64,000 bases of DNA from an uncultured Gammaproteobacteria bacterium (GTDB taxonomy: Bacteria; Pseudomonadota; Gammaproteobacteria; DRLM01). The notes beneath the pieces were generated by a model that was not told where the DNA came from, ran no database searches, and saw nothing but the letters and a program-made list of their open reading frames with translations. The stretch spans positions 800,001 through 864,000 of the forward strand of contig CAVSNY010000007.1 in NCBI GenBank assembly GCA_963729605.1. The letters are read 5' to 3'. A program made the position numbers and the translations under genes. Below are positions 1 through 58,635 of this stretch, one piece after another. Numbering within the stretch: the stretch's first letter is position 1; every line of letters starts with the position of its first letter.

Positions 1-653
<653 letters not shown>

Positions 654-763
654 ATAACACCCAAGTAGTTTGGTGTGTGCTCGAATGAAGTACCCAGCCT
701 TTTACAGCTTTTTCCGAATTGTCAGTGACGGCGGGTCCATGAGCCTGTCGCCTGAAACCAGTT

Positions 764-881
764 TGCCTGGTGGCCATAGCGAGCGGGAACCACCCGATCC
801 CATTCCGAACTCGGAAGTGAAAACGCTCAGCGCCGATGATAGTGTGGGAGTATCCCATGTGAAAGTAGGACACTGCCAGGC
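764..881 (+). rRNA. rrf: 5S rRNA
   Basis: TGCCTGG...CCAGGC terminal helix; CCGAACTCGGAAGTGAAA, GCCGATGATAGTGTGGG; about 118 nt, downstream of 23S. Confidence 0.98.
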
Positions 882-30360: not shown

Positions 30361-32184
30361 TCATAGCGTTGGGCTGTAGCGCGCTTCGATGAAGACGGCG
30401 CGGCCCGCGCTGTTGAAGCCGTCGGCCAGTTCGTAACGTTTGTCGAAGGCATTTTCGAGCTTGCCGATCAAACGCCAATCTTTTTGCACGCGCCATTGCG
30501 CGCTCAGATTCACCAGGCCGTAACCGGCGTTGTAGGTATCGGAAAAGGCCGAATCCTTGCGCTTACTTTGTAGAATCAGATCGGCGCCGACTTGATACGC
30601 CGTTTGCTCGTACACCAGCGAGGTGGTGAGGCTGCGTTTCGCGCGGCGCGGCAGCGGTTCGCCGCTGGTTTCGTTCTTGGGATCTTGCACGATGCCTTCC
30701 ACGCGCAGGCTGACGGGTTGCAGGTTCAGGGCGTAACTCAGTTCCACGCCGCGGATGCGGGCCTTTTCCACGTTTTGATTGGCGCCCTGGATGGGGCCGA
30801 GAAAACCGTCCGGATCGGTGAATTCGATGAGGTCTTCGATGCGGTTGTCGAAGAGATTCACCGCCACGGTTTGGCGTTGGCCGATGCGCTGGCGCGCGCC
30901 GACTTCAAGATTGCGCGAGGTCTCCGGCTTGAGGTCGGGGTTGCCGCCGAAACCGAAACGGTCGGTGGCGTCCGGCGCGCGGAAGCCGGTGCCGGCCGCG
31001 GCGGTGAAGCGGGTGGCCGGCGACAATTTAAAACCATATTCCACGTTCCAGGTGCCGTGGCCGCCGAAGCTGTCGTGATCGGTGTGGCGTCCCGCCAGCA
31101 GCAGATGATGTGCACCCCATTTGATGTCGTCTTGCAAGTAAACGGCGTTGACGTCGGTGGCCTCGTCGAAGCCGGTGCCGAACACGCTGGAGGAGGCCTT
31201 TTCCCGCGACAGCATCAAGCCGGCGGTGAGCAATTGCCGCGCGTCGAGTTGCACATCGTTCTGCCAGTCGAGTTGATTGCGGCGGGTGTGCGCGAAATCG
31301 TCGCCTTGGTTTTGATCGATCTCGTCGCTGGCCTGGCTGAGCCGCAAGGTGCTGACCCACGCGTCGCGTGGCGCGGCTTTGAGCGCGAGGCTGGTGGCGG
31401 TGTTTCTGAAATCCTGGTCCAAAGGCGTGAGGAAGAAATCGAAATATTCGGTATTGCCGGCGCTTTGCCAGCGGCGCAGCTCGACGTCGAGCGGGCCGAA
31501 CTCGCGCCCGGCGTAGAGATTGAAGCTGAGATTGTCATGGCCGCGCGCTTCGCTGGCGTCCTGGCGGGTGGCGAAACCGTCGCTGGCGTAGGCGCTGGCG
31601 TCGATGCCGGCGCGGCTGGTGCCGTCGCCGAAATGGACGCCCAGGTCGTGACTGCGGGTGCCGTAGCGCCCGGCGCCGAACGCGAAATAACCGCGCGCGC
31701 CCTCGGCCGCCCGGCGGGTGATGATATTGATGACGCCGCCGATGGCGTCGGAGCCATAGAGGCTGGAGCGCGGGCCTTTCACCACTTCGATGCGTTCGAT
31801 CAGATCGGGACGGATGTTTTGCAGGGCGGCGCCGCCGATGGTGCCGGGGTTGATCTTGACGCCGTCAATCATCACCAAGGTGTGATTGCTCTCGGTACCG
31901 CGCAGAAACAGCGAGGCCGGTTGACCGGCGCCGCCGTTGCGGCCGATATCGAGCCCGGCGTGCAGGCGCAACAAATCCGCCACATCGACGGCGGCGCTGC
32001 GTTCGATGACGTCGCGCTCGATGACGATGACCGGCGCCAGGGTTTGATCGGCGATTTGCGCGGTGCGGGTGGCGGTGACCACGATCGCCGCGTCATCGGC
32101 GGCATGCAAGGCGCTGCCGCCGGCGGCATACAGCAGTGAAATCAAGGTAATTTTTTTTGTAAAAGATTTTTTTGGCAAAGACAT
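30361..32184 (-). CDS. btuB: TonB-dependent vitamin B12 receptor BtuB
   Basis: IVVTATR TonB box, FLRGTESNHTLVMIDGV, ERIEVVKGPRSSLYGSDAIGGVINIIT; cobalamin riboswitch upstream. Confidence 0.93.
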   Translation of the reverse strand: MSLPKKSFTKKITLISLLYAAGGSALHAADDAAIVVTATRTAQIADQTLAPVIVIERDVIERSAAVDVADLLRLHAGLDIGRNGGAGQPASLFLRGTESNHTLVMIDGVKINPGTIGGAALQNIRPDLIERIEVVKGPRSSLYGSDAIGGVINIITRRAAEGARGYFAFGAGRYGTRSHDLGVHFGDGTSRAGIDASAYASDGFATRQDASEARGHDNLSFNLYAGREFGPLDVELRRWQSAGNTEYFDFFLTPLDQDFRNTATSLALKAAPRDAWVSTLRLSQASDEIDQNQGDDFAHTRRNQLDWQNDVQLDARQLLTAGLMLSREKASSSVFGTGFDEATDVNAVYLQDDIKWGAHHLLLAGRHTDHDSFGGHGTWNVEYGFKLSPATRFTAAAGTGFRAPDATDRFGFGGNPDLKPETSRNLEVGARQRIGQRQTVAVNLFDNRIEDLIEFTDPDGFLGPIQGANQNVEKARIRGVELSYALNLQPVSLRVEGIVQDPKNETSGEPLPRRAKRSLTTSLVYEQTAYQVGADLILQSKRKDSAFSDTYNAGYGLVNLSAQWRVQKDWRLIGKLENAFDKRYELADGFNSAGRAVFIEARYSPTL

Positions 32185-32311
32185 GCGGACCGTTTCCTGT
32201 TTTGTCTGCGCGCACCCACGCAGGTTGTAGTGGTGGTGCGCAGTGGAACAGGCAGGCCGGCAGGACGAAACGACATCCGCCAGCATTGCCCGCCGCAACA
32301 CTGCGCTTCAT

Positions 32312-32508
32312 CAACCTCAGGCCGGTCTCCGGGCTTGTGAGTGGATCGCTCCTGGCGGGCCGCCTTCCCACGCGATGCGCAGTGGCGATTGGCCCGTCTT
32401 TGCTCACTTACCGTTGCGGGGGCAGCGCCGGACTTGCTCGTGATAGCGAGCGCACCGGCTTCCCGTTTCATCCCGCGCTTTGAGCGGCGCGGAACACCTG
32501 ACGGTTTG
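32312..32508 (-). ncRNA. Cobalamin riboswitch
   Basis: Minus: AGGTG..GGGATGAAACGGGAAGCCGGTG..AAGTCCGGCGCTGCCCCCGCAACGGTAA..GCCACTG..GGGAAGG..AAGCCCGGAGACCGGCC (B12 box). Confidence 0.96.
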
Positions 32509-32519
32509 AACGAGGCCGC

Positions 32520-32999: not shown

Positions 33000-33947
33000 A
33001 TGAATAAATTTGTAAAAATCATCACCACTGCGGGCTCGGCGGCGCTGATTATGAGTGGTACTGCCATGGCCGATCCGCCCGCCAATTTCGATGTGTGGAG
33101 CGTGAGCAGCGGCAACATTTCGTTCGGTGACTATGATAGCGGCACCGCCGGTACGCAAACGTGCCCCGCCGGCTTTACTTGCGGGACACCGGTGACAGGC
33201 TCCGGATTCCTGCAACGTCAGGTCGTGAATAATGTCTCCGGCGCTCAATATTTTCAGACTATCGTGGCGCCGGAAGGCGCGACCGGCGCGCCTGCCGCTC
33301 TGGTTTTCGCCGATGAAACCTTCGTCAGGGTCGGTGCCAGCGGTGTGTCGGGTAAACAGCATGCCCTCGACTCCTCGGTATCCGGCATCGAAACCACCGA
33401 TGTCTCGACGTCCACCATGCTTAATTCGGGATGGGCGTCGGGTGGATCTTTTAACGATTTGCAAATCAGTCAATCGATCACCTTGACCAACAATAAATCG
33501 ACCACGCCGGAAGTGACGCTTTTTAACGGATTCACCTTCAATCAAAACGGCACCAACGCCGCGCCCACCGGTAAATTCCTGGACGTGACCCAGGGCGTGT
33601 TGATCGAAGGCGACGCGAACATCGCCAATAACACCGGCGATGACGTGCAGAAATTCGTGATGCGGCAAGCCTCAGGCAATCTCAACGGTGCCGCGCATGT
33701 CTTGGCCTCACCGGTATTGCTGCCGGGCAATGGCAGCGACTTGGCCTGGTCGGCCACCGATGACGTAAAAGTCATCTGGGTAGGCCAGCAAATGATTAAA
33801 TCGGGCGTGGAGTCCTTCCGTTATCAGTTTTACGACAACCTCACGTCGGTCGCCGCCGATTCCATTTCGGATTTCGAAGTGGGTCAAGCGACGCCCTTCA
33901 GCTGGGTCAATCCCTTCTCCACGACACCGGGTTTGACCGTGCCTTGA
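33000..33947 (+). CDS. Secreted hypothetical protein, S/T/G/N-rich, probably beta-rich
   Basis: Signal peptide ending AMA-DPP; GAGG RBS; CPAGFTC pair; own terminator. Confidence 0.85.
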   Translation: MNKFVKIITTAGSAALIMSGTAMADPPANFDVWSVSSGNISFGDYDSGTAGTQTCPAGFTCGTPVTGSGFLQRQVVNNVSGAQYFQTIVAPEGATGAPAALVFADETFVRVGASGVSGKQHALDSSVSGIETTDVSTSTMLNSGWASGGSFNDLQISQSITLTNNKSTTPEVTLFNGFTFNQNGTNAAPTGKFLDVTQGVLIEGDANIANNTGDDVQKFVMRQASGNLNGAAHVLASPVLLPGNGSDLAWSATDDVKVIWVGQQMIKSGVESFRYQFYDNLTSVAADSISDFEVGQATPFSWVNPFSTTPGLTVP

Positions 33948-35130: not shown

Positions 35131-35754
35131 TTACGGCGTGGCGATGAGCTGCGGCGGCAGTGCCGCCAGATCCTCCGGCCGATCGATGTCGGTCCGTTCC
35201 GGTAATAAACACCAATGCTGGTTCATCTCGCGCAGCCGCGCGAGGGTGTTGGCCAGCACCGTGGCGCGGCCCCACGCCATGCCCTCGAACAAGCGCGGCT
35301 GCGCGCGGCGCAAACCGATCAACCAATAACCGCCGTCCCGCGCCGGACCCACTACCGCGTCGGCGCCGTCCGCCAGCGCGGTGACGGCCTGTTGCAGATC
35401 CCGGGTCGTCATGCCCGGACAATCGCTACCGGTGAGGATGACGTATTGCGCGCGGGTCAGCGCGTCATCAAAAGCCTGGGCCATGCGCGCGCCCAGGTCG
35501 CCGCCGCTTTGATTGTGCAGGCTGAGCGGCCACGAGACGCGCGCCGCGCTGAAAAAGGCATGGCGGGTATCGGGACTGCACCACAACTCCACCGGATAGT
35601 CCGCCGCGCAGACCGTGGCGAGGGTGTGCCTCACCAGCCGTTCATGCAAGGCCGCCGCTCGCGCCGCGCCGAGGGCGGGAATCAAGCGGGTTTTGGCCTG
35701 TCCGGCGATTGGCGCCTTGGCGAAGACCAGGATGCGCGCGGAGGGGCCGTTCAC
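35131..35754 (-). CDS. TIGR04282-like transferase 1 (CofC-like fold, rSAM/ArsS-associated)
   Basis: VFAKAP..G.AKTRLIP, Q.GGDLGARM, GSDCP, GPARDGGYWLIG, DIDRPEDL; GTGA overlap. Confidence 0.9.
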   Translation of the reverse strand: MNGPSARILVFAKAPIAGQAKTRLIPALGAARAAALHERLVRHTLATVCAADYPVELWCSPDTRHAFFSAARVSWPLSLHNQSGGDLGARMAQAFDDALTRAQYVILTGSDCPGMTTRDLQQAVTALADGADAVVGPARDGGYWLIGLRRAQPRLFEGMAWGRATVLANTLARLREMNQHWCLLPERTDIDRPEDLAALPPQLIATP

Positions 35755-36443
35755 GATTTCTTGCCGCCGCTGCCGTAACGCCGCAGCAAGTCTCGCGGGT
35801 CGGCGCCGAAAAAATAAGCCAGGCGCAGCCGCCACATCAACCACACCGTAGACGCTATCCCGTGGCTTTCCCAGCGGCGGCTGGAGGTGATGACGCGTTC
35901 ACGCAGGCAGAGCGGCCGGCCGGATCTTTTCAAGACGCGCGACAGCGCGATGTCTTCCATCAGCGCGATGTCGGGGAAACCACCCACGCTTTCGAACAAG
36001 CGCCGTTCGACGAAGATCGCCTGATCGCCGGTGGCGATGCCGGAGAGCCGCGAACGCAGGTTCATCAGGGCTTCGATGAGGCGGAGCGCGGGATGGCGGC
36101 CGGATAAACGCACATCGAAGCGGCCCCAGCGACGCCCGCGGCGAGATAACCCTTCGGCGATTAACCGCGCGCAGTCATGCGGTAAAACGCTGTCGGCGTG
36201 CAAAAACACCAGCACCTCGCCACCGGCCAGCCGGGCGCCGGTGTTCATCTGCCGGGCGCGGCCCGGCGCGGAATGGACGACCTGGTCGGCGAGCGGCGCG
36301 GCGAGCGCGGCACTGCCGTCGGCGCTGCCGCCGTCCACCACGATGAGTTCATGTCCCGCGCGCCGCAGCGCTTGCAGCGGTGCGAGCGCGGCGGTGATGC
36401 CGGCCGCTTCATCGAGCATGGGAATGATGATGGATAGCCGCAT
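35751..36443 (-). CDS. TIGR04283-like GT2 glycosyltransferase (ArsS-associated)
   Basis: LSIIIP..DE, VDGGS.D, GRARQMN.GA, FLHAD, ATGDQ, ALMED, TSSRRWE. Confidence 0.92.
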   Translation of the reverse strand: MRLSIIIPMLDEAAGITAALAPLQALRRAGHELIVVDGGSADGSAALAAPLADQVVHSAPGRARQMNTGARLAGGEVLVFLHADSVLPHDCARLIAEGLSRRGRRWGRFDVRLSGRHPALRLIEALMNLRSRLSGIATGDQAIFVERRLFESVGGFPDIALMEDIALSRVLKRSGRPLCLRERVITSSRRWESHGIASTVWLMWRLRLAYFFGADPRDLLRRYGSGGKKS

Positions 36444-36514
36444 GGATTGGGCGTCGATGGATTAGTCGGTGTAAGGTGAAGGCATAAGGCGCGGGCCTTT
36501 GCATCGGTCCCGTT

Positions 36515-36661
36515 TCAACAACAGCCGTTTTCGTTGCTGACGATCTCTTCCGGCACCAGCGTCAAGAGCGAGTTGTCGTAGCTCACCGGACAGCACAAGC
36601 TGGGTTGCAGGTCCATGGCGCCGCGTGAGTAACGGTCGAGTACCGCGGAATGAATGTTCAT
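36515..36661 (-). CDS. 48-aa Cys-Cys small ORF / internally deleted ArsM-like methyltransferase remnant
   Basis: Hand translation MNIHSAVLDRYSRGAMDLQPSLCCPVSYDNSLLTLVPEEIVSNENGCC*; AAGGTGGA RBS; below the ORF-track cutoff. Confidence 0.7.
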   Translation of the reverse strand: MNIHSAVLDRYSRGAMDLQPSLCCPVSYDNSLLTLVPEEIVSNENGCC

Positions 36662-36763
36662 GGAATCCACCTTGTATAAAAATAGAAAAGGTAAAAGGGT
36701 TTTTTATCTTCTTCCCGGTTTTTGCGCGGGGAAAAAAGCCTCTTTTTCCGCTATTTTCGCTAT

Positions 36764-37732
36764 TCAATCTTTTACCAGCGCGCCGCCGCAACTGCTGCCC
36801 TGCCCGGCGGTGCAGCCGTAGCAATGGTCTTTCACCACGATGGGATTGCCGGTGAGGTTTACCCCCATGAGGTCTTTGATGTGCGTGCGCGGACGGTCGT
36901 TGAGGCGCAGCGGCAGGGCGAGCATTTGATTGAAATCGCAATCGTAGACATACCCTTGCCAGTCGATGCTGATCAAATCGCGGCACATCACCGATTCGAG
37001 ATTGGCGTCTTGGTGGGCCTCATGCAACAGCGTCATGTAATCCTCGAACTGCCCTTTGGAGATCAGCGTGCTGCCGAAACGTTGGATGGGCATATTGGCC
37101 AAGGTGAAGAGTTGATTGAAGACGATGCCGTATGCATCACTCAGGTGTTGTTTATAGTCGGCCTGCAATGGACCTTGCGCGGGCGGTAATGACGGTCCTT
37201 GCGGGTTGTACACCAGATTCAAGATCAAACCGCTGTCCGGTTGGCCGTAACCCAAGGCGTTGAGTCGCTGCAGTGCGCGAATGCTGGCGGCGAATACGCC
37301 CTTGCCGCGCTGACGGTCCACATTGTCTTCGAGATAACAGGGCAGGGAAGCAATGGCCTCGACGCGTTGCATCGCGAGGAATTCGGCCAAATCTTCCTGC
37401 CCCGGTTCTTCGAGTATGGTGAGATTGCAGCGGTCGATGACTCGTATGCCTTGCGCCCGCGCGGTACGCACGATGTCGCGGAAGTGGGGATTCAATTCCG
37501 GTGCGCCGCCGGTGAGGTCGAGGGCGCCGATGTTCGCGGCGCGCAGATAGGCCAGCACCTGCTCCACGGTTTCACGCGTCATGATTTCGGTGCGGCGCGG
37601 CCCGGCGTTGACATGGCAGTGCAGGCATTGCTGATTGCAGAGATAGCCCAGATTGACTTGCAGCGTCTCCAGCTTGTTACGACGCAGGGCGGGGAAACGG
37701 GTTTGCTCCAGTAGAGGCAAGGTGGCTAACAT
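36764..37732 (-). CDS. arsS: Radical SAM protein ArsS (TIGR04167-like, DUF3641), Cys form
   Basis: LQVNLGYLCNQQCLHCHV, DLTGGAPE, VMCR..IS, YDCDFNQML, HCYGCTAGQGSSCGG. Confidence 0.93.
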   Translation of the reverse strand: MLATLPLLEQTRFPALRRNKLETLQVNLGYLCNQQCLHCHVNAGPRRTEIMTRETVEQVLAYLRAANIGALDLTGGAPELNPHFRDIVRTARAQGIRVIDRCNLTILEEPGQEDLAEFLAMQRVEAIASLPCYLEDNVDRQRGKGVFAASIRALQRLNALGYGQPDSGLILNLVYNPQGPSLPPAQGPLQADYKQHLSDAYGIVFNQLFTLANMPIQRFGSTLISKGQFEDYMTLLHEAHQDANLESVMCRDLISIDWQGYVYDCDFNQMLALPLRLNDRPRTHIKDLMGVNLTGNPIVVKDHCYGCTAGQGSSCGGALVKD

Positions 37733-37757
37733 GGCTGCATCCTTGGTTGGTTGAACA

Positions 37758-38495
37758 TCAGTCTTCCGCGCGCGCCGGGTCGGGCGCGGCTTTGCTTTTG
37801 TCGCGGATCTTTTTTACCACAACCGGGAGCAAGGCGAACACGCCCAATAAGCCGAAGGCCGCCAGCGTCCCGGCGGAGAGAAGCTCGCTGGTGGAATTGA
37901 TGCGGCCCAAGGATAACCCCAGATTGGCGAAGACGAAACTGCCCGGAATAATCCCGAGAAAGGTGGCCGCCACATAGACGCGGACCGAGACGGGCGTGAA
38001 GGCCGGCGCGAGATTCACCAGCCAGAACGGAAACAGCGGCACCAGGCGCAGGAACAATAAATAGTGGAAGGCGTTTTCGTGAAAGCCGGCGATGAGTTTG
38101 TCGGCGCGCTCGCCCAATCGCCGCCGCACGGTCTCGGCGAACAGATAGCGGGCGGCGAGAAACACCAAGGTCGCACCGAGGGTGGCGGCGATCACGATGA
38201 TGAGCGTGCCCGCCCAGCGGCCGAACAGCATGCCCACCGCCAGCGACATGATCACCCCGCCCGGCACGCTGAGCGCCACCGCGCCCGCGTAAATCAACAG
38301 GGCCGCGGCGAGCGTGGTCCAGTAATGTTGCCGGGAGAAACTCAACAGAGCGTCGCGGTTTTCCTTAAGCGTATCGAGGCTCAGCCACTCGTTGCCGCCC
38401 AGGGCGAAAAAGGCGCCGATACCGCCGGCGAACACCGCGATGACGGCGAGCTTGAGCCAGCGCGCGGAAGTGGAATGTGGTTTTTTTCTAGCCAT
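37758..38495 (-). CDS. TVP38/TMEM64 (DedA superfamily) membrane protein
   Basis: SVPGG, G..FG, ATLGA...F..ARY, LRLVPLFPFWLVNL, GIIPG. Confidence 0.93.
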   Translation of the reverse strand: MARKKPHSTSARWLKLAVIAVFAGGIGAFFALGGNEWLSLDTLKENRDALLSFSRQHYWTTLAAALLIYAGAVALSVPGGVIMSLAVGMLFGRWAGTLIIVIAATLGATLVFLAARYLFAETVRRRLGERADKLIAGFHENAFHYLLFLRLVPLFPFWLVNLAPAFTPVSVRVYVAATFLGIIPGSFVFANLGLSLGRINSTSELLSAGTLAAFGLLGVFALLPVVVKKIRDKSKAAPDPARAED

Positions 38496-38690
38496 GGGTT
38501 ATTCCGTGGGCTCGTATCGGCGCGGTGCCGCGGCGACTGATTGATCGATCTTTACGCCCAAGACGCCAAGTTTTTCTTTGCCATGGAAGAGATTTTTTTC
38601 CGCGTCCTTGGTGGTCAAGCAGTCTTTCCAGGTTTTCCTCAGTATAGCCGCCGTCGTGCGGGGGCGGCGGGATCGTCGCGATGATGATGT

Positions 38691-38717
38691 AGTCGCACGG
38701 CGCGCCGAGACCTTACG
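38691..38717 (-). promoter_or_regulatory. Candidate ECF promoter (copy 2) upstream of dedA-arsS
   Basis: Minus CGTAAGG-N15-CGACT, identical boxes and spacing to the motif at 41177-41203. Confidence 0.5.
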
Positions 38718-38970
38718 AATTTTTTTTATCGGCGCCGAGCCTGGCCCGGATGCGTTGTTTGGCCTCGTCGGAGAGTGGCGGCGCGGCGGTTGTGTCGAGG
38801 TGCTCGGGTAAGTGCCGCGTCGCCTGTCGGAGGAAAAGCAGTTGGCGCCGATAGCGGCTGCACAATGTGCAGATCATCAGGTGCATACGCACCGCGAGGC
38901 GTTTACCGATCGGCAGCGGGCGATCCAGCGACAACGACACCATTTGGCTGACTTCTTTGCACGATAACAT
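38713..38970 (-). CDS. Zinc-finger (zf-HC2) anti-sigma factor
   Basis: MLSCKEVS, HLMICTLC (HxxxCxxC); start overlaps the sigma stop. Confidence 0.9.
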   Translation of the reverse strand: MLSCKEVSQMVSLSLDRPLPIGKRLAVRMHLMICTLCSRYRRQLLFLRQATRHLPEHLDTTAAPPLSDEAKQRIRARLGADKKNS

Positions 38971-39545
38971 CACGTCTTGTCCTCGCCCTGACGGTGGAAC
39001 CAGTTCGCGTCCAGGCACTGCCGCATGCGCAGGCGGGCGCGCGACAATATGACCCACAGGTTGTTGGTCGTATCGATGGCCAATTCCTGACAAATGGCTT
39101 CGGTGCTGAGGCCATCGAGTTCGCGCAGCATCAAGGCGTCGCCCATGCGCGGCGGCAGATGTCCCAAACATTCTCGGAATATCCGCCAGAATTCTTTTTG
39201 TTCGAGGGCCTTGTCCGGGTCTGACCATTGACTGACGTCGATCCGCCAGTGGCCGTGTTGATCGAACAGGTCGGCGGTCTGATCGGCGGCCGCGTCGATG
39301 TCATCGCCCAGCGGCCGCTCCCGCCGCGCCTTGCGCAGATGATCGACGATCTTGTGTTTGAGAATGCCGATGAGCCAGGTCCGCTCCGAGGACCGGCCGG
39401 CGTAGCGCGCCTGCATGGCGGCGAGCAGGGTGTCCTGCACCAGATCCTCGGCCAGCGGGCTATCGCGCAGGCGCAGCATGGCGTAGCGGTAGAGGGCGTC
39501 GCCGTGTTGATCCAGCCACTGCTTGGGGTCGCTCGCGGTCGGCAT
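38970..39545 (-). CDS. ECF RNA polymerase sigma factor (TIGR02943-like)
   Basis: LYRYA..RLRD...AEDLVQDT, TWLIGILKHKIVD, FDQHGHW, IC.EL....NLWVILSRAR.R.RQCL. Confidence 0.94.
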   Translation of the reverse strand: MPTASDPKQWLDQHGDALYRYAMLRLRDSPLAEDLVQDTLLAAMQARYAGRSSERTWLIGILKHKIVDHLRKARRERPLGDDIDAAADQTADLFDQHGHWRIDVSQWSDPDKALEQKEFWRIFRECLGHLPPRMGDALMLRELDGLSTEAICQELAIDTTNNLWVILSRARLRMRQCLDANWFHRQGEDKT

Positions 39546-39594
39546 GGTTGTCGTGAGTCCGGTTCAGGGTAAGGCCGCGCTGCGGTCATGATAG

Positions 39595-41028
39595 TTATTT
39601 TCCGCGCAGGCGGAAAATCCGTTTGAGCCATTTTCTCGCGCGGGGCGTCAACCCCGCCTTGAGGCGTTGGTCGGCCACCCGCCGGTTGATCTGCGCCAGG
39701 GTTGGATAAATGTGGATCACCCCGGACAGATCCTTGGCCTTCATCCCGTTGGCGAGGGCGAGCACGTATTCGTGGATGAGTTCACCGGCGTGCGGCCCCA
39801 CCAGCGTCGCGCCCAATAATTTTCCCCGGGGGCCGGTGATGATTTTGGCGAAGCCGTCGGTCTCGCCGTCGGTTTGCGCGCGGTCGATGTCGTGAAAGGG
39901 GAAGGTGTAGACCTGGTGCGCGATGCCTTGTCGGCGCGCCTGGTTTTCCGACAGCCCCACCCGCGCCACTTCCGGGTCGCTGTAGGTGCACCAGGGGATG
40001 ACCCGTTGTTCCACTTTGGCGGGCAGATGGAACAGCGCGTTGCGCAACACCACGCCGGCCTGATGTTCCGCCATGTGGGTGAACAGATACGGGCCGGTGA
40101 CGTCGCCGCAGGCGTAGATGTGTTTGACGCTGGTGCGCAGGCGCGGGTCGGTGCGGACGTAACCGCGCTCATCGAGTCGCACGCCGGCGGCGTCCAGCCC
40201 CAGGTTTTCGCTATTGGCGCGGCGGCCGGTGGCCAGTAACAGGTGCGAGCCGTTGACGGTGAGGGTGGCGCCCGCGTGTTGTTTGAATGTGAGCTGGAGA
40301 TCACCGGTTTGACCGCTGACCCCCAGCGTTTCACTGTCGAGCAACACATTGACTCCCTCGGCGCGCAGGCGCCGTTCCACCACGGCGGCCGCGTCCCGGT
40401 CTTCCACCGGGAGCAATTGCGGACCACGTTCGATCAGCGTCACCTCGCTGCCGAGGCGGGCGAAGGCCTGGGCCATTTCCACGCCGATGGGACCGCCGCC
40501 CAGCACGAGTAAACGCGGCACCGGTTCGCGCAGAGTGAAGACGGTCTCGTTGGTGAGAAAGGGCACATCGGCCAAGCCCGCGATGGGCGGCACGGCCGGC
40601 CGCGAGCCGGTGGCGATGACGAAATTCTTCGCGGTGAGGCGGCGGCCGTCCACCTCGAAGACGTGAGGATCGGTAAAACGGCCCGCGCCGAAAATCACCT
40701 CGATACCCATGTCGCGGAAACGTTGCGGATTGTCATGCACTTCGATGGTGGCGATGACCGAGTTCACCCGATCCATGACTTGGCCGATATCCACCCTAAG
40801 ACTGTGGCCGGGCAGGCCGTAACGCTGCGCGGTCCGCGCCAGGTGCGCCACCTTCGCGGTCTGGAGCAGGGCCTTGCTGGGCACGCAGCCGGTCCACAGG
40901 CAATCGCCGCCCAGCCGGTGTTTCTCGACCAGGGCCACCTTGGCCCCCAGGGTGGCGGCGCCCGCCGCGGCCACCAGCCCGCCGGAGCCGCCGCCGATGA
41001 CGCAGAGATCGAATTCCGTTTTAGGCAT
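39595..41028 (-). CDS. Pyridine nucleotide-disulfide oxidoreductase (LpdA/MerA-like, lacking MerA C-terminal Cys pair)
   Basis: IGGGSGG, GGDCLWTGCVPSK, GGGPIGVE, ACGD, HIYPTL; GGAG RBS before ATG 41028. Confidence 0.92.
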   Translation of the reverse strand: MPKTEFDLCVIGGGSGGLVAAAGAATLGAKVALVEKHRLGGDCLWTGCVPSKALLQTAKVAHLARTAQRYGLPGHSLRVDIGQVMDRVNSVIATIEVHDNPQRFRDMGIEVIFGAGRFTDPHVFEVDGRRLTAKNFVIATGSRPAVPPIAGLADVPFLTNETVFTLREPVPRLLVLGGGPIGVEMAQAFARLGSEVTLIERGPQLLPVEDRDAAAVVERRLRAEGVNVLLDSETLGVSGQTGDLQLTFKQHAGATLTVNGSHLLLATGRRANSENLGLDAAGVRLDERGYVRTDPRLRTSVKHIYACGDVTGPYLFTHMAEHQAGVVLRNALFHLPAKVEQRVIPWCTYSDPEVARVGLSENQARRQGIAHQVYTFPFHDIDRAQTDGETDGFAKIITGPRGKLLGATLVGPHAGELIHEYVLALANGMKAKDLSGVIHIYPTLAQINRRVADQRLKAGLTPRARKWLKRIFRLRGK

Positions 41029-41176
41029 CGGCGGGTTCTCCAGGGGCGGTCCGGCGGGGCGTAACGACGGCCGGGATGGCCGGCCGGCAGGTTTCACCGT
41101 AACGGTTTTGGGTCGGCCGGGCAAACACTTGGCGGGCGAAGAGGGGTGAATGAACATAGGCCATGGTTGCTTGATC

Positions 41177-58533: not shown

Positions 58534-58550
58534 GGTGTATCTCCTAAAAA

Positions 58551-58620
58551 CGAGAGCGCCGTTTCAAGGAGCCGCTTTCCTCGAGCCTGGCGGGGATTCC
58601 GCTGCAGCGCCCCTCGAGGA
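58551..58620 (-). ncRNA. SAH riboswitch
   Basis: Minus CCTCGAGGGGCGCTGCAGCGG..CCGCCAGGCTCGAGG..AAACGGCGCTC directly upstream of the ahcY RBS. Confidence 0.92.
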
Positions 58621-58635
58621 TAGCGGCGATGAAGC

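What the first reader, a model, noticed from the sequence alone, without database searches (positions are those of the whole stretch)
36515..36661. Unannotated 48-aa ORF: the two Cys-Cys ends of an ArsM-like methyltransferase joined in frame
Seen: RBS plus MNIHSAVLDRYSRGAMDLQPSLCCPVSYDNSLLTLVPEEIVSNENGCC*, lying between arsS and the GT2 gene. From recall, AV..RY..GA......LCCPV.YD...L..LP.EI is the N-terminus of ArsS-linked methyltransferases, which continue DYGCG and often end in GCC. Inference: an internal deletion removed the catalytic core but kept frame, RBS and both vicinal dithiols. It is either a clean pseudogene or a minimal As(III)/metal-binding chaperone.
Basis: partly seen in the sequence, partly recalled or inferred. 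Interest (0 to 1): 0.75.

Follow-up and report, generated by a model that had tools for sequence, protein, structure and literature searches.

The report
Leftover stub of a deleted arsM gene
The 48-codon reading frame is what remains of an arsenic methyltransferase gene after a clean in-frame deletion of 325 codons, and it looks like an ordinary decaying gene remnant, not a new small protein.

Summary
The ORF is real. It lies on the minus strand at 36515-36661, between arsS and a TIGR04283 glycosyltransferase gene. A same-genus genome (G003) has a 373-aa ArsM-type methyltransferase at this spot. The window differs from it by an exact 975-bp (325-codon) deletion. The stub keeps residues 1-42 and the last 6, and loses the SAM-binding core and the Cys174/Cys224 equivalents.

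The deletion ends lie in an imperfect 14-nt in-frame direct repeat (KDYGC / NENGC). That alone explains the kept frame, the ribosome-binding site and a Cys at position 47.

It is not an assembly artefact: contigs from three other studies bridge the same junction.

Six 48-aa variants exist, all with the same junction. Their 15 amino-acid changes are spread evenly over the columns. They include Y28D, L32F and P37R at positions invariant in 120 full-length homologues, and one Cys loss (C48R). The stub diverges about three times faster than neighbouring proteins on the same contigs.

A second same-genus genome (G001) has arsS directly followed by the glycosyltransferase gene, with no arsM at all. 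Of 23 other ArsS-bearing relatives, 13 lack this ArsM type.

Verdict: a drifting pseudogene remnant.

The parts
36515..36661 (-). 48-codon remnant of an ArsM-type As(III) SAM methyltransferase gene. It holds codons 1-42 and the last 6 codons plus stop of the ancestral ~373-codon gene.
   Evidence: sequence. (975-bp in-frame deletion against G003). (no Pfam or NCBIfam match of its own).
36522..36535 (-). Surviving copy (AACGAAAACGGCTG, coding NENGC) of an imperfect 14-nt in-frame direct repeat. The deletion junction lies at its 5' edge (AGC AA|C).
   Evidence: G003 has AAAGATTACGGCTG (KDYGC, codons 43-47) and AACGAAAACGGCTG (NENGC, codons 368-372), 11/14 identical and 975 bp apart.
36666..36673 (-). 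Shine-Dalgarno-like AAGGTGGA inherited from arsM, 4 nt before the ATG.
   Evidence: The same sequence lies before the G003 full-length gene.
36662..36763 (-). arsS-arsM intergenic spacer (102 nt, A/T-rich) with a hairpin at 36726-36751. It is conserved in G003.
   Evidence: Single-base length differences in homopolymer runs in contigs of other studies (table 4).
36764..37732 (-). arsS, radical SAM (seleno)protein of the arsenosugar-type cluster, intact (322 aa).
   Evidence: TIGR04167 467.1 bits (cut-off 300); PF12345 and PF04055.
35751..36443 (-). TIGR04283-family GT2 glycosyltransferase, intact (230 aa).
   Evidence: 277.1 bits (cut-off 182).
35131..35844 (-). TIGR04282 / DUF2064 transferase. 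This is the longest ORF; the true start is probably further in, since the family match begins at residue 38.
   Evidence: 213.6 bits (cut-off 134).
37758..38495 (-). VTT/DedA-type membrane protein, upstream neighbour on the same strand.
   Evidence: PF09335 85 bits. Same position in G001, G002 and G003.

Best explanation
The ORF is a pseudogene remnant of arsM. An ancestor of this lineage carried the operon VTT - arsS - arsM - GT2 (TIGR04283) - TIGR04282. A single deletion between two imperfect 14-nt direct repeats removed 975 bp, codons 43-367. The repeats lie in the same reading frame: one codes KDYGC at the start of methyltransferase motif I, the other NENGC at the C-terminus. The mechanism is inferred to be replication slippage or illegitimate recombination.

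Because the repeats are in frame, the product is automatically an open 48-codon frame. It keeps the original promoter context, RBS and start, the N-terminal Cys-Cys, a Cys at position 47 and the terminal Cys. No selection is needed to explain any of these.

The stub lacks the SAM-binding fold and the Cys174/Cys224-equivalent metalloid site, so it cannot methylate arsenic. It has since drifted neutrally in a lineage now seen in several habitats. It may still be transcribed and translated as a passenger of the operon; this was not tested. The arsS-GT-GT genes remain intact without arsM.
For: (1) Deletion. Window and G003 are 94-95% identical on both sides of a 975-bp gap. The two blastn segments overlap by 14 nt.

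(2) Parent enzyme. G003 P0002 (373 aa) matches arsenic methyltransferase structures 4FR0/4KW7 at E 1e-37. YGCG aligns to Cys72, ISNC to Cys174 and GCL to Cys224. Its best NCBIfam matches are ArsM models. All of this region is missing from the window.

(3) Full length in relatives. The gene is full length in 11 of 60 other relatives searched, including 4 of the 11 other genomes of the order.

(4) Not an assembly artefact. Contigs of three other studies cover the junction without an insert (table 8):
- X2 record 9: 7178 nt, 0 gaps.
- X3 record 20: 762 nt.
- X7 record 25: 28361 nt, covering the whole 35751-37732.

(5) Relaxed constraint.
- Six distinct 48-aa variants share the junction.
- Their 15 inferred amino-acid changes fall on columns as a uniform model predicts. 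For example, 5 of 15 fall in the 18 of 48 columns with at most 3 changes in the family.
- The same spread is far from family-like rates (binomial P about 3e-7).
- Y28D, L32F and P37R hit columns invariant in 120/120 homologues.
- All 4 differences between X2 and the window in the ORF are non-synonymous, against 8 non-synonymous and 9 synonymous in GT2.

(6) Faster divergence. The ORF differs at 18/192 residues (9.4%) against 55/1747 (3.1%) for ArsS, GT2 and VTT on the same four contigs. These comparisons all share the window branch, so they are not independent.

(7) Cysteines not spared. One Cys-changing event was observed (C48R) against 1.35 expected under neutrality. No ORF-breaking event was seen against 1.15 expected (P(0)=0.32).

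(8) No substitute gene. No other ArsM-type gene was found in this genome, which is 94.5% complete.

(9) arsM is dispensable nearby. Same-genus G001 has arsS followed by GT2 after 19 nt and no arsM.
Against: - The frame is intact in all six variants and in the three bridging contigs, and three of the four cysteines are kept in all six. This is compatible with weak selection on a thiol peptide, though chance explains it. Broken versions would not have been found by a protein search for 26-84-aa products.
- The RBS and operon position are kept, so a peptide may well be made.
- ORF nucleotide divergence from X2 (4/147, 2.7%) is lower than in the downstream spacer (6/71). The numbers are small.
- dN/dS against G003 over 42 codons is 0.28 (3 non-synonymous, 3 synonymous). 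This is uninformative and includes the branch of a functional gene.
- No DNA of the other five variants could be read, so there is no proper dN/dS within the deletion lineage.
- No expression data were obtained.
Confidence: 0.85

Rival explanations
1. The stub has been co-opted as a small thiol peptide. It would be translated from the old arsM RBS and use Cys23/Cys24 and Cys47/Cys48 to bind As(III) or methylarsenite, or to act as a redox relay, perhaps handing substrate to ArsS.
For: - The RBS, start and frame are kept, and the ORF is open in six variants and three bridging contigs.
- The stub keeps the probable equivalents of the N-terminal cysteine pair of arsenic methyltransferases. Passages of PMC6138428 describe that pair as the redox pair (Cys44/Cys72 in CmArsM), not the metalloid site. 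Position 47 matches Cys72 by alignment.
- arsS and both transferase genes stay intact without arsM.
Against: - The kept features follow automatically from an in-frame repeat-mediated deletion.
- Substitutions are spread uniformly and include radical changes (G14D, S21R, Y28D, P37R) and a Cys loss (C48R).
- Cys changes occur at the neutral expectation.
- Divergence is about 3x that of neighbours.
- The metalloid-binding pair (Cys174/Cys224 equivalents) is deleted.
- G001 keeps the same operon with no stub at all.
- No independently arisen short version was found among 26-84-aa proteins.
Confidence: 0.08
2. Assembly artefact: the assembler collapsed a full-length arsM between two short repeats.
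For: The break lies in a short direct repeat. The window's own reads could not be examined: no run held more than 0.34 of the sampled words.
Against: - A 14-nt imperfect repeat is far too short to collapse an assembly.
- Contigs assembled independently from three other studies carry the same junction.
- Five further 48-aa versions come from other assemblies.
Confidence: 0.01
3. Recurrent hotspot deletion: the repeat pair makes the same deletion arise repeatedly. On this reading the short alleles in different samples are independent events and full-length and short alleles coexist in populations.
For: - The direct repeat is present in G003.
- GT2 protein distances do not place G003 clearly outside the deletion carriers: window-G003 11 differences, window-P0137 11.
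- There is a recombination mosaic here: arsS dS 0.53 against GT2 dS 0.086 between window and G003.
Against: - All six short forms share V41, where G003 has L41, and the same 3'-type junction sequence.
- G002 lacks the C-terminal repeat copy; its gene ends DDGAACC.
- No full-length allele at more than 90% identity other than G003's cluster appeared.
- In any case this changes the history, not the nature, of the stub.
Confidence: 0.06

Closest known systems
ArsM / AS3MT As(III) S-adenosylmethionine methyltransferases (CmArsM, PDB 4FR0/4FS8/4KW7)
   Same: The full-length orthologue in G003 aligns to CmArsM at E 1e-37, with the Cys72, Cys174 and Cys224 positions conserved. Its best NCBIfam matches are ArsM models. 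The stub is 85% identical to that orthologue over residues 1-48.
   Different: The stub has no methyltransferase fold, no SAM motif and no Cys174/Cys224 equivalents. Even the full-length relatives fall below every ArsM model cut-off: NF040538 347.5 against 500, NF008823 195.5 against 263, NF038099 140.1 against 400. They also carry an invariant C-terminal Cys-Cys. Whether CmArsM has that pair was not checked here.
Arsenosugar biosynthesis cluster arsM-arsS of cyanobacteria
   Same: ArsS and the TIGR04283 and TIGR04282 transferases are all over their cut-offs and in one operon. Passages of PMC13598754 say ArsS adenosylates DMAs(III) to DDMAA. Passages of bioRxiv 10.1101/2022.09.23.509062 say arsS uses the methylarsenite species made by ArsM and is co-transcribed with arsM.
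   Different: Here the arsM partner is reduced to 48 codons, and no other ArsM-type gene was found in the genome. The cluster therefore lacks its own source of the published ArsS substrate.
Deletion pseudogenes formed between short direct repeats (replication slippage / illegitimate recombination)
   Same: The break lies within an 11/14-identical direct repeat. One repeat copy is left, the flanks are colinear and the remnant has drifted since.
   Different: Nothing essential. The only unusual feature is that the repeats are in frame, so the stub stays open and looks like a designed mini-protein.

Membership tests
ArsM / AS3MT arsenite methyltransferase (the 48-aa ORF itself) | Class I SAM-dependent methyltransferase fold with motif I (DLGSGxG) | tested here: not met
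   No Pfam or NCBIfam family at E<=0.01. Motif I of G003 (LDLGSGGG, residues 61-68) lies inside the deleted codons 43-367.
ArsM / AS3MT arsenite methyltransferase (the 48-aa ORF itself) | Four conserved cysteines (Cys44, Cys72, Cys174, Cys224 in CmArsM; passages of PMC6138428) | tested here: not met
   Only the N-terminal pair has counterparts: C23/C24 (probable, not aligned by phmmer) and C47, at the YGCG position aligned to Cys72. The Cys174 and Cys224 equivalents are deleted.
ArsM / AS3MT arsenite methyltransferase (the 48-aa ORF itself) | Descent from an ArsM-type gene (homology of what is left) | tested here: met
   87% identity to G003 over residues 1-47. It matches the N-termini of 11 full-length genes at E<=3e-11. 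The DNA is colinear with G003 arsM on both sides of the deletion.
ArsM (the full-length parent type, G003 P0002) | Score over a curated ArsM model cut-off | tested here: not met
   NF040538 347.5 bits (cut-off 500); NF008823 195.5 (263); NF038099 140.1 (400). It is ArsM-like, but a separate subfamily.
ArsM (the full-length parent type, G003 P0002) | Conserved catalytic cysteines aligned to a solved ArsM | tested here: met
   Cys72, Cys174 and Cys224 of 4KW7/4FR0 align to C47, C173 (ISNC) and the C of GCLSGA.
Arsenosugar-type ArsS cluster | ArsS (TIGR04167) with TIGR04283 and TIGR04282 transferases in one operon | tested here: met
   467.1, 277.1 and 213.6 bits, all over their cut-offs. All are on the minus strand at 35131-37732.
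Arsenosugar-type ArsS cluster | A functional ArsM supplying DMAs(III) | tested here: not met
   Only the 48-codon stub is present. No other ArsM-type match was found in the 94.5%-complete genome.
Pseudogene (non-functional remnant) | Loss of the parent's selective constraint | tested here: met
   The spread of 15 substitutions fits a uniform model and rejects family-like rates. Divergence is 9.4% against 3.1% in neighbours. Cys changes are at the neutral expectation.
Pseudogene (non-functional remnant) | No product, or a product without function | not testable with these tools
RNA runs held at most 0.13 of the sampled words.

The most novel reading that the evidence does not exclude
The stub is translated and has been kept as a 48-residue dithiol peptide, the N-terminal redox pair of ArsM set free. 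It would serve the ArsS/glycosyltransferase module, for example by binding or reducing imported methylarsenicals, in a lineage that no longer methylates arsenic itself and lives on methylarsenic made by neighbours.
Probability: 0.05. Interest if true: 0.6.

Novelty: already known. Interest (0 to 1): 0.15.

Why it matters
For the stub itself, it matters little. It is a tidy example of how a deletion between in-frame short repeats leaves an open, RBS-equipped micro-ORF that mimics a designed mini-protein. That makes it a useful warning for small-ORF discovery and for annotation: this gene should be flagged as an arsM pseudogene, not a new peptide.

The by-product is more interesting. The arsS-GT-GT module stays intact after arsM is lost here. 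It is also intact in G001, which has no arsM. This ArsM type was not found in 13 of 23 other ArsS-bearing relatives. This suggests the module often works without an ArsM of its own, either on methylarsenicals made by other organisms or on another substrate. The published role of ArsS does not predict that.

Tried and rejected
- Junction-specific degenerate pattern in JGI metagenome contigs and in GTDB representative genomes: 0 matches in each. The window's own genome may be left out of these scans by design.
- Short-protein search (26-84 aa) for independent short versions: only the stub's own cluster appeared, 1 candidate.
- TIGR04290 (recalled as the ArsS-linked methyltransferase family) in the own genome: only weak generic methyltransferase hits. 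The parent type turned out to match ArsM models instead.
- dN/dS of the stub against G003: 3 non-synonymous and 3 synonymous changes, too few to decide.
- Fisher comparison of non-synonymous to synonymous changes in the ORF (4:0) and GT2 (8:9) for X2: suggestive only. I did not compute a P value in a call.
- Run X1: it covers only 36632-36921 of the ORF region and ends in 14 unlike letters, so it says nothing about the junction.
- Source reads and RNA: no run held more than 0.34 of the sampled words, so the window's own reads were not examined.
- Earlier notes of this scan near the place: none.
- Promoter and terminator scan: nothing above shuffle expectation near the ORF.
- Structure and complex prediction: not run, since nothing in the evidence called for a binding claim.

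Full report
**What is there**

The ORF exists as described, but on the minus strand (36515-36661, 48 codons plus TGA). AAGGTGGA lies 4 nt before the ATG. A slightly longer frame from a GTG at 36670 starts inside that Shine-Dalgarno-like sequence. The family alignment puts the start at the ATG, with M at column 1 in 116 of 120 homologues.

The ORF sits in a minus-strand operon:
- a MerA-like FAD oxidoreductase (39595-41157);
- an ECF sigma factor gene in between (38970-39545);
- a VTT/DedA membrane protein (37758-38495);
- arsS (36764-37732; TIGR04167, 467 bits, cut-off 300);
- the ORF;
- a TIGR04283 GT2 (35751-36443; 277 bits, cut-off 182);
- a TIGR04282/DUF2064 transferase (35131-35844; 214 bits, cut-off 134).

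The ORF itself matches no Pfam or NCBIfam model.

**What it derives from**

Searching 61 genomes (the window's own plus 60 relatives) with the 48-aa product gave 20 with a match at E<=1. Apart from the window's own genome, 11 matched at E<=3e-11, and every one of those lies at the start of an open frame of 366-406 aa.

The closest relative, same-genus G003, encodes a 373-aa protein (P0002) between arsS and the same GT2 gene.
- P0002 matches solved arsenic methyltransferases (4KW7, 4FR0; E about 1e-37).
- YGCG aligns on Cys72, ISNC on Cys174 and GCL on Cys224.
- Together with Cys44, these are the four cysteines that passages of PMC6138428 describe as conserved in all arsenic methyltransferases. 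Cys174/Cys224 form the metalloid site and Cys44/Cys72 act as a redox pair.
- P0002's best NCBIfam hits are ArsM models, all below their cut-offs. The parent is therefore ArsM-like but a subfamily of its own.
- That subfamily is large: 8000 proteins at E<=1e-20, which is the search's own ceiling. The best 120 listed are 370-378 aa long.

**The deletion**

blastn of the window against G003 gives two colinear segments, 94% and 95% identical, separated by 975 bp present only in G003. The two segments overlap by 14 nt in the window.

Codon by codon, the sequences read:
- window: ...ATC GTC AGC AAC GAA AAC GGC TGT TGT TGA
- G003 at codons 40-47: ...ATC CTC AGC AAA GAT TAC GGC TGC
- G003 at codons 366-374: ...TGC TGT AAC GAA AAC GGC TGT CGT TGA

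The two G003 sites are an imperfect direct repeat (AAAGATTACGGCTG / AACGAAAACGGCTG, 11 of 14) in the same reading frame. The junction lies at the AA at its 5' edge.

A deletion between in-frame repeats is in frame by construction and leaves one repeat copy. This explains three things at once:
- the frame is open;
- a Gly-Cys sits at positions 46-47 exactly as in the enzyme's YGCG;
- a plain search aligns residues 1-47 to the N-terminus without a gap.

What was lost is residues 43-367: motif I, the whole Rossmann fold and the Cys174/Cys224 equivalents. That the mechanism was slippage or illegitimate recombination is inference from this anatomy.

**Is it real?**

The window's own reads were not available; the best run held 0.34 of the sampled words. 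However, contigs assembled from three other studies cover the junction without any insert (table 8):
- X2 record 9: 7178 nt, covering 35751-36805, 0 gaps, 34 other letters.
- X3 record 20: 762 nt, covering 36452-37216.
- X7 record 25: 28361 nt, covering the whole 35751-37732. Its 4 single-base gaps all lie in intergenic runs.

X1 does not reach the junction. The protein database holds a cluster of six distinct 48-aa sequences, five of them from other assemblies. Assembly collapse is therefore rejected for the lineage.

**Is it under selection?**

All six variants share the junction and V41, where G003 has L41. This points to one ancestral event.

*Where the changes fall.* Relative to their consensus I count 15 amino-acid changes: A6V, S12L, R13H, G14D, V18L, P20S, S21R, S21G, Y28D, D29N, S31L, L32F, L36V, P37R and C48R. 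The consensus and the count of events are my own reading of six sequences, not a tree-based reconstruction.
- I estimated column-wise rates by parsimony on a tree of the 120 full-length homologues.
- 3 of the 15 changes hit the 12 columns that never change (Y28, L32, P37).
- 5 of 15 hit the 18 columns with at most 3 changes.
- These 18 columns carry 1.0% of the family's changes but are 38% of the columns.
- The observed spread fits the uniform model (P(>=5)=0.72) and rejects family-like rates (P about 3e-7).

ArsS, GT2 and VTT differ at 55 of 1747 (3.1%). The Fisher P of 1.5e-4 is overstated, because all comparisons share the window branch.

*Synonymous and non-synonymous changes.* For X2, where the DNA differences are listed, the four differences in the stub are all non-synonymous. 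GT2 has 8 non-synonymous and 9 synonymous. Table 3 lists 29 of the 34 differences on that X2 contig.

*Cysteines and stops.* Under neutrality, 15 amino-acid changes would be accompanied by 1.35 cysteine changes (1 seen, C48R) and 1.15 ORF-breaking changes (0 seen, P=0.32). Broken versions would also have escaped the protein search.

There is thus no sign of constraint, old or new. With 48 codons and six sequences, a weak constraint on a few residues cannot be excluded.

**Context of loss**

No other ArsM-type gene was found in the window's genome, which is 94.5% complete.

Same-genus G001 (96% complete) has VTT - arsS - GT2 - TIGR04282 with only 19 nt between arsS and GT2. It has no match to P0002 at E<=1e-8.

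Among the 61 genomes:
- ArsS is over its cut-off in 24.
- A full-length P0002-type gene is present in 11, of which 10 also have ArsS.
- So 13 of the 23 other ArsS-bearing genomes lack this ArsM type at E<=1e-20. More distant ArsM types are not excluded.

These counts include one unpublished genome (G050: ArsS plus full-length ArsM). Losing or lacking arsM beside arsS is therefore common in this group.

Published work gives ArsS the role of adenosylating DMAs(III), which ArsM makes. I read only passages of PMC13598754 and bioRxiv 10.1101/2022.09.23.509062. How the module works without ArsM is open.

**Verdict**

This is a pseudogene remnant of arsM made by one in-frame, repeat-mediated deletion, drifting since (confidence 0.85). 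The peptide may still be made as an operon passenger. A co-opted dithiol peptide is not excluded (about 0.05-0.08), but nothing supports it.

Of its two proposed outcomes, the pseudogene is the supported one.

Noticed in passing
window 35131-38495, with G001 locus L042 2214-5274: The arsS-GT2-TIGR04282 module is intact without any arsM here and in same-genus G001. Of 23 other ArsS-bearing relatives, 13 lack the P0002-type ArsM at E<=1e-20. The module may often depend on methylarsenicals made by other organisms, or act on another substrate.
   Followed up: partly
window 35751-37732 against G003 (L025): Mosaic divergence between the window and G003: arsS has dS 0.53 (omega 0.13), but the adjacent stub has dS 0.11 and GT2 dS 0.086. 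The last 46 nt of arsS aligned here are identical. This suggests a recombination breakpoint inside or at the 3' end of arsS.
   Followed up: partly
window 36726-36751: A/T-rich hairpin (GCGGGGAAAAAAGCCTCTTTTTCCGC on the + strand) in the arsS-arsM spacer. It is conserved in G003, with single-base length differences nearby in contigs of other studies. Its role is unknown.
   Followed up: no
window 32303-32516 (-) and 30361-32301 (-): Cobalamin riboswitch (Rfam RF00174, 111.6 bits) directly upstream of a 646-aa ORF that looks like a TonB-dependent receptor by eye. That ORF was not scanned against families.
   Followed up: no
window 58547-58621 (-): SAH riboswitch (RF01057, 54.4 bits).
   Followed up: no
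window 1-881 (+): The 3' end of a 23S rRNA gene and a 5S rRNA gene lie at the start of the window.
   Followed up: no
window 37758-41157 (-): A MerA-like FAD-dependent disulfide oxidoreductase (NF004991, 534 bits, under its cut-off of 620) and a VTT/DedA membrane protein lie upstream of arsS on the same strand. An ECF sigma factor gene (38970-39545) lies between them. VTT is next to arsS in G001, G002 and G003 too.
   Followed up: no
window 33000-33947 (+): A 315-aa ORF with a signal-peptide-like N-terminus and no Pfam match.
   Followed up: no
family alignment of P0002 and P0008-P0126: The ArsS-linked ArsM-like subfamily has an invariant C-terminal Cys-Cys (120/120 and 119/120) and an invariant N-terminal LCC, in addition to the canonical ArsM cysteines. 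G003's own copy ends in Cys-Arg, the single exception.
   Followed up: partly
G025: One relative (97% complete) has a full-length P0002-type ArsM but no ArsS at E<=1e-30. This is the reverse of the pattern seen in the window.
   Followed up: no
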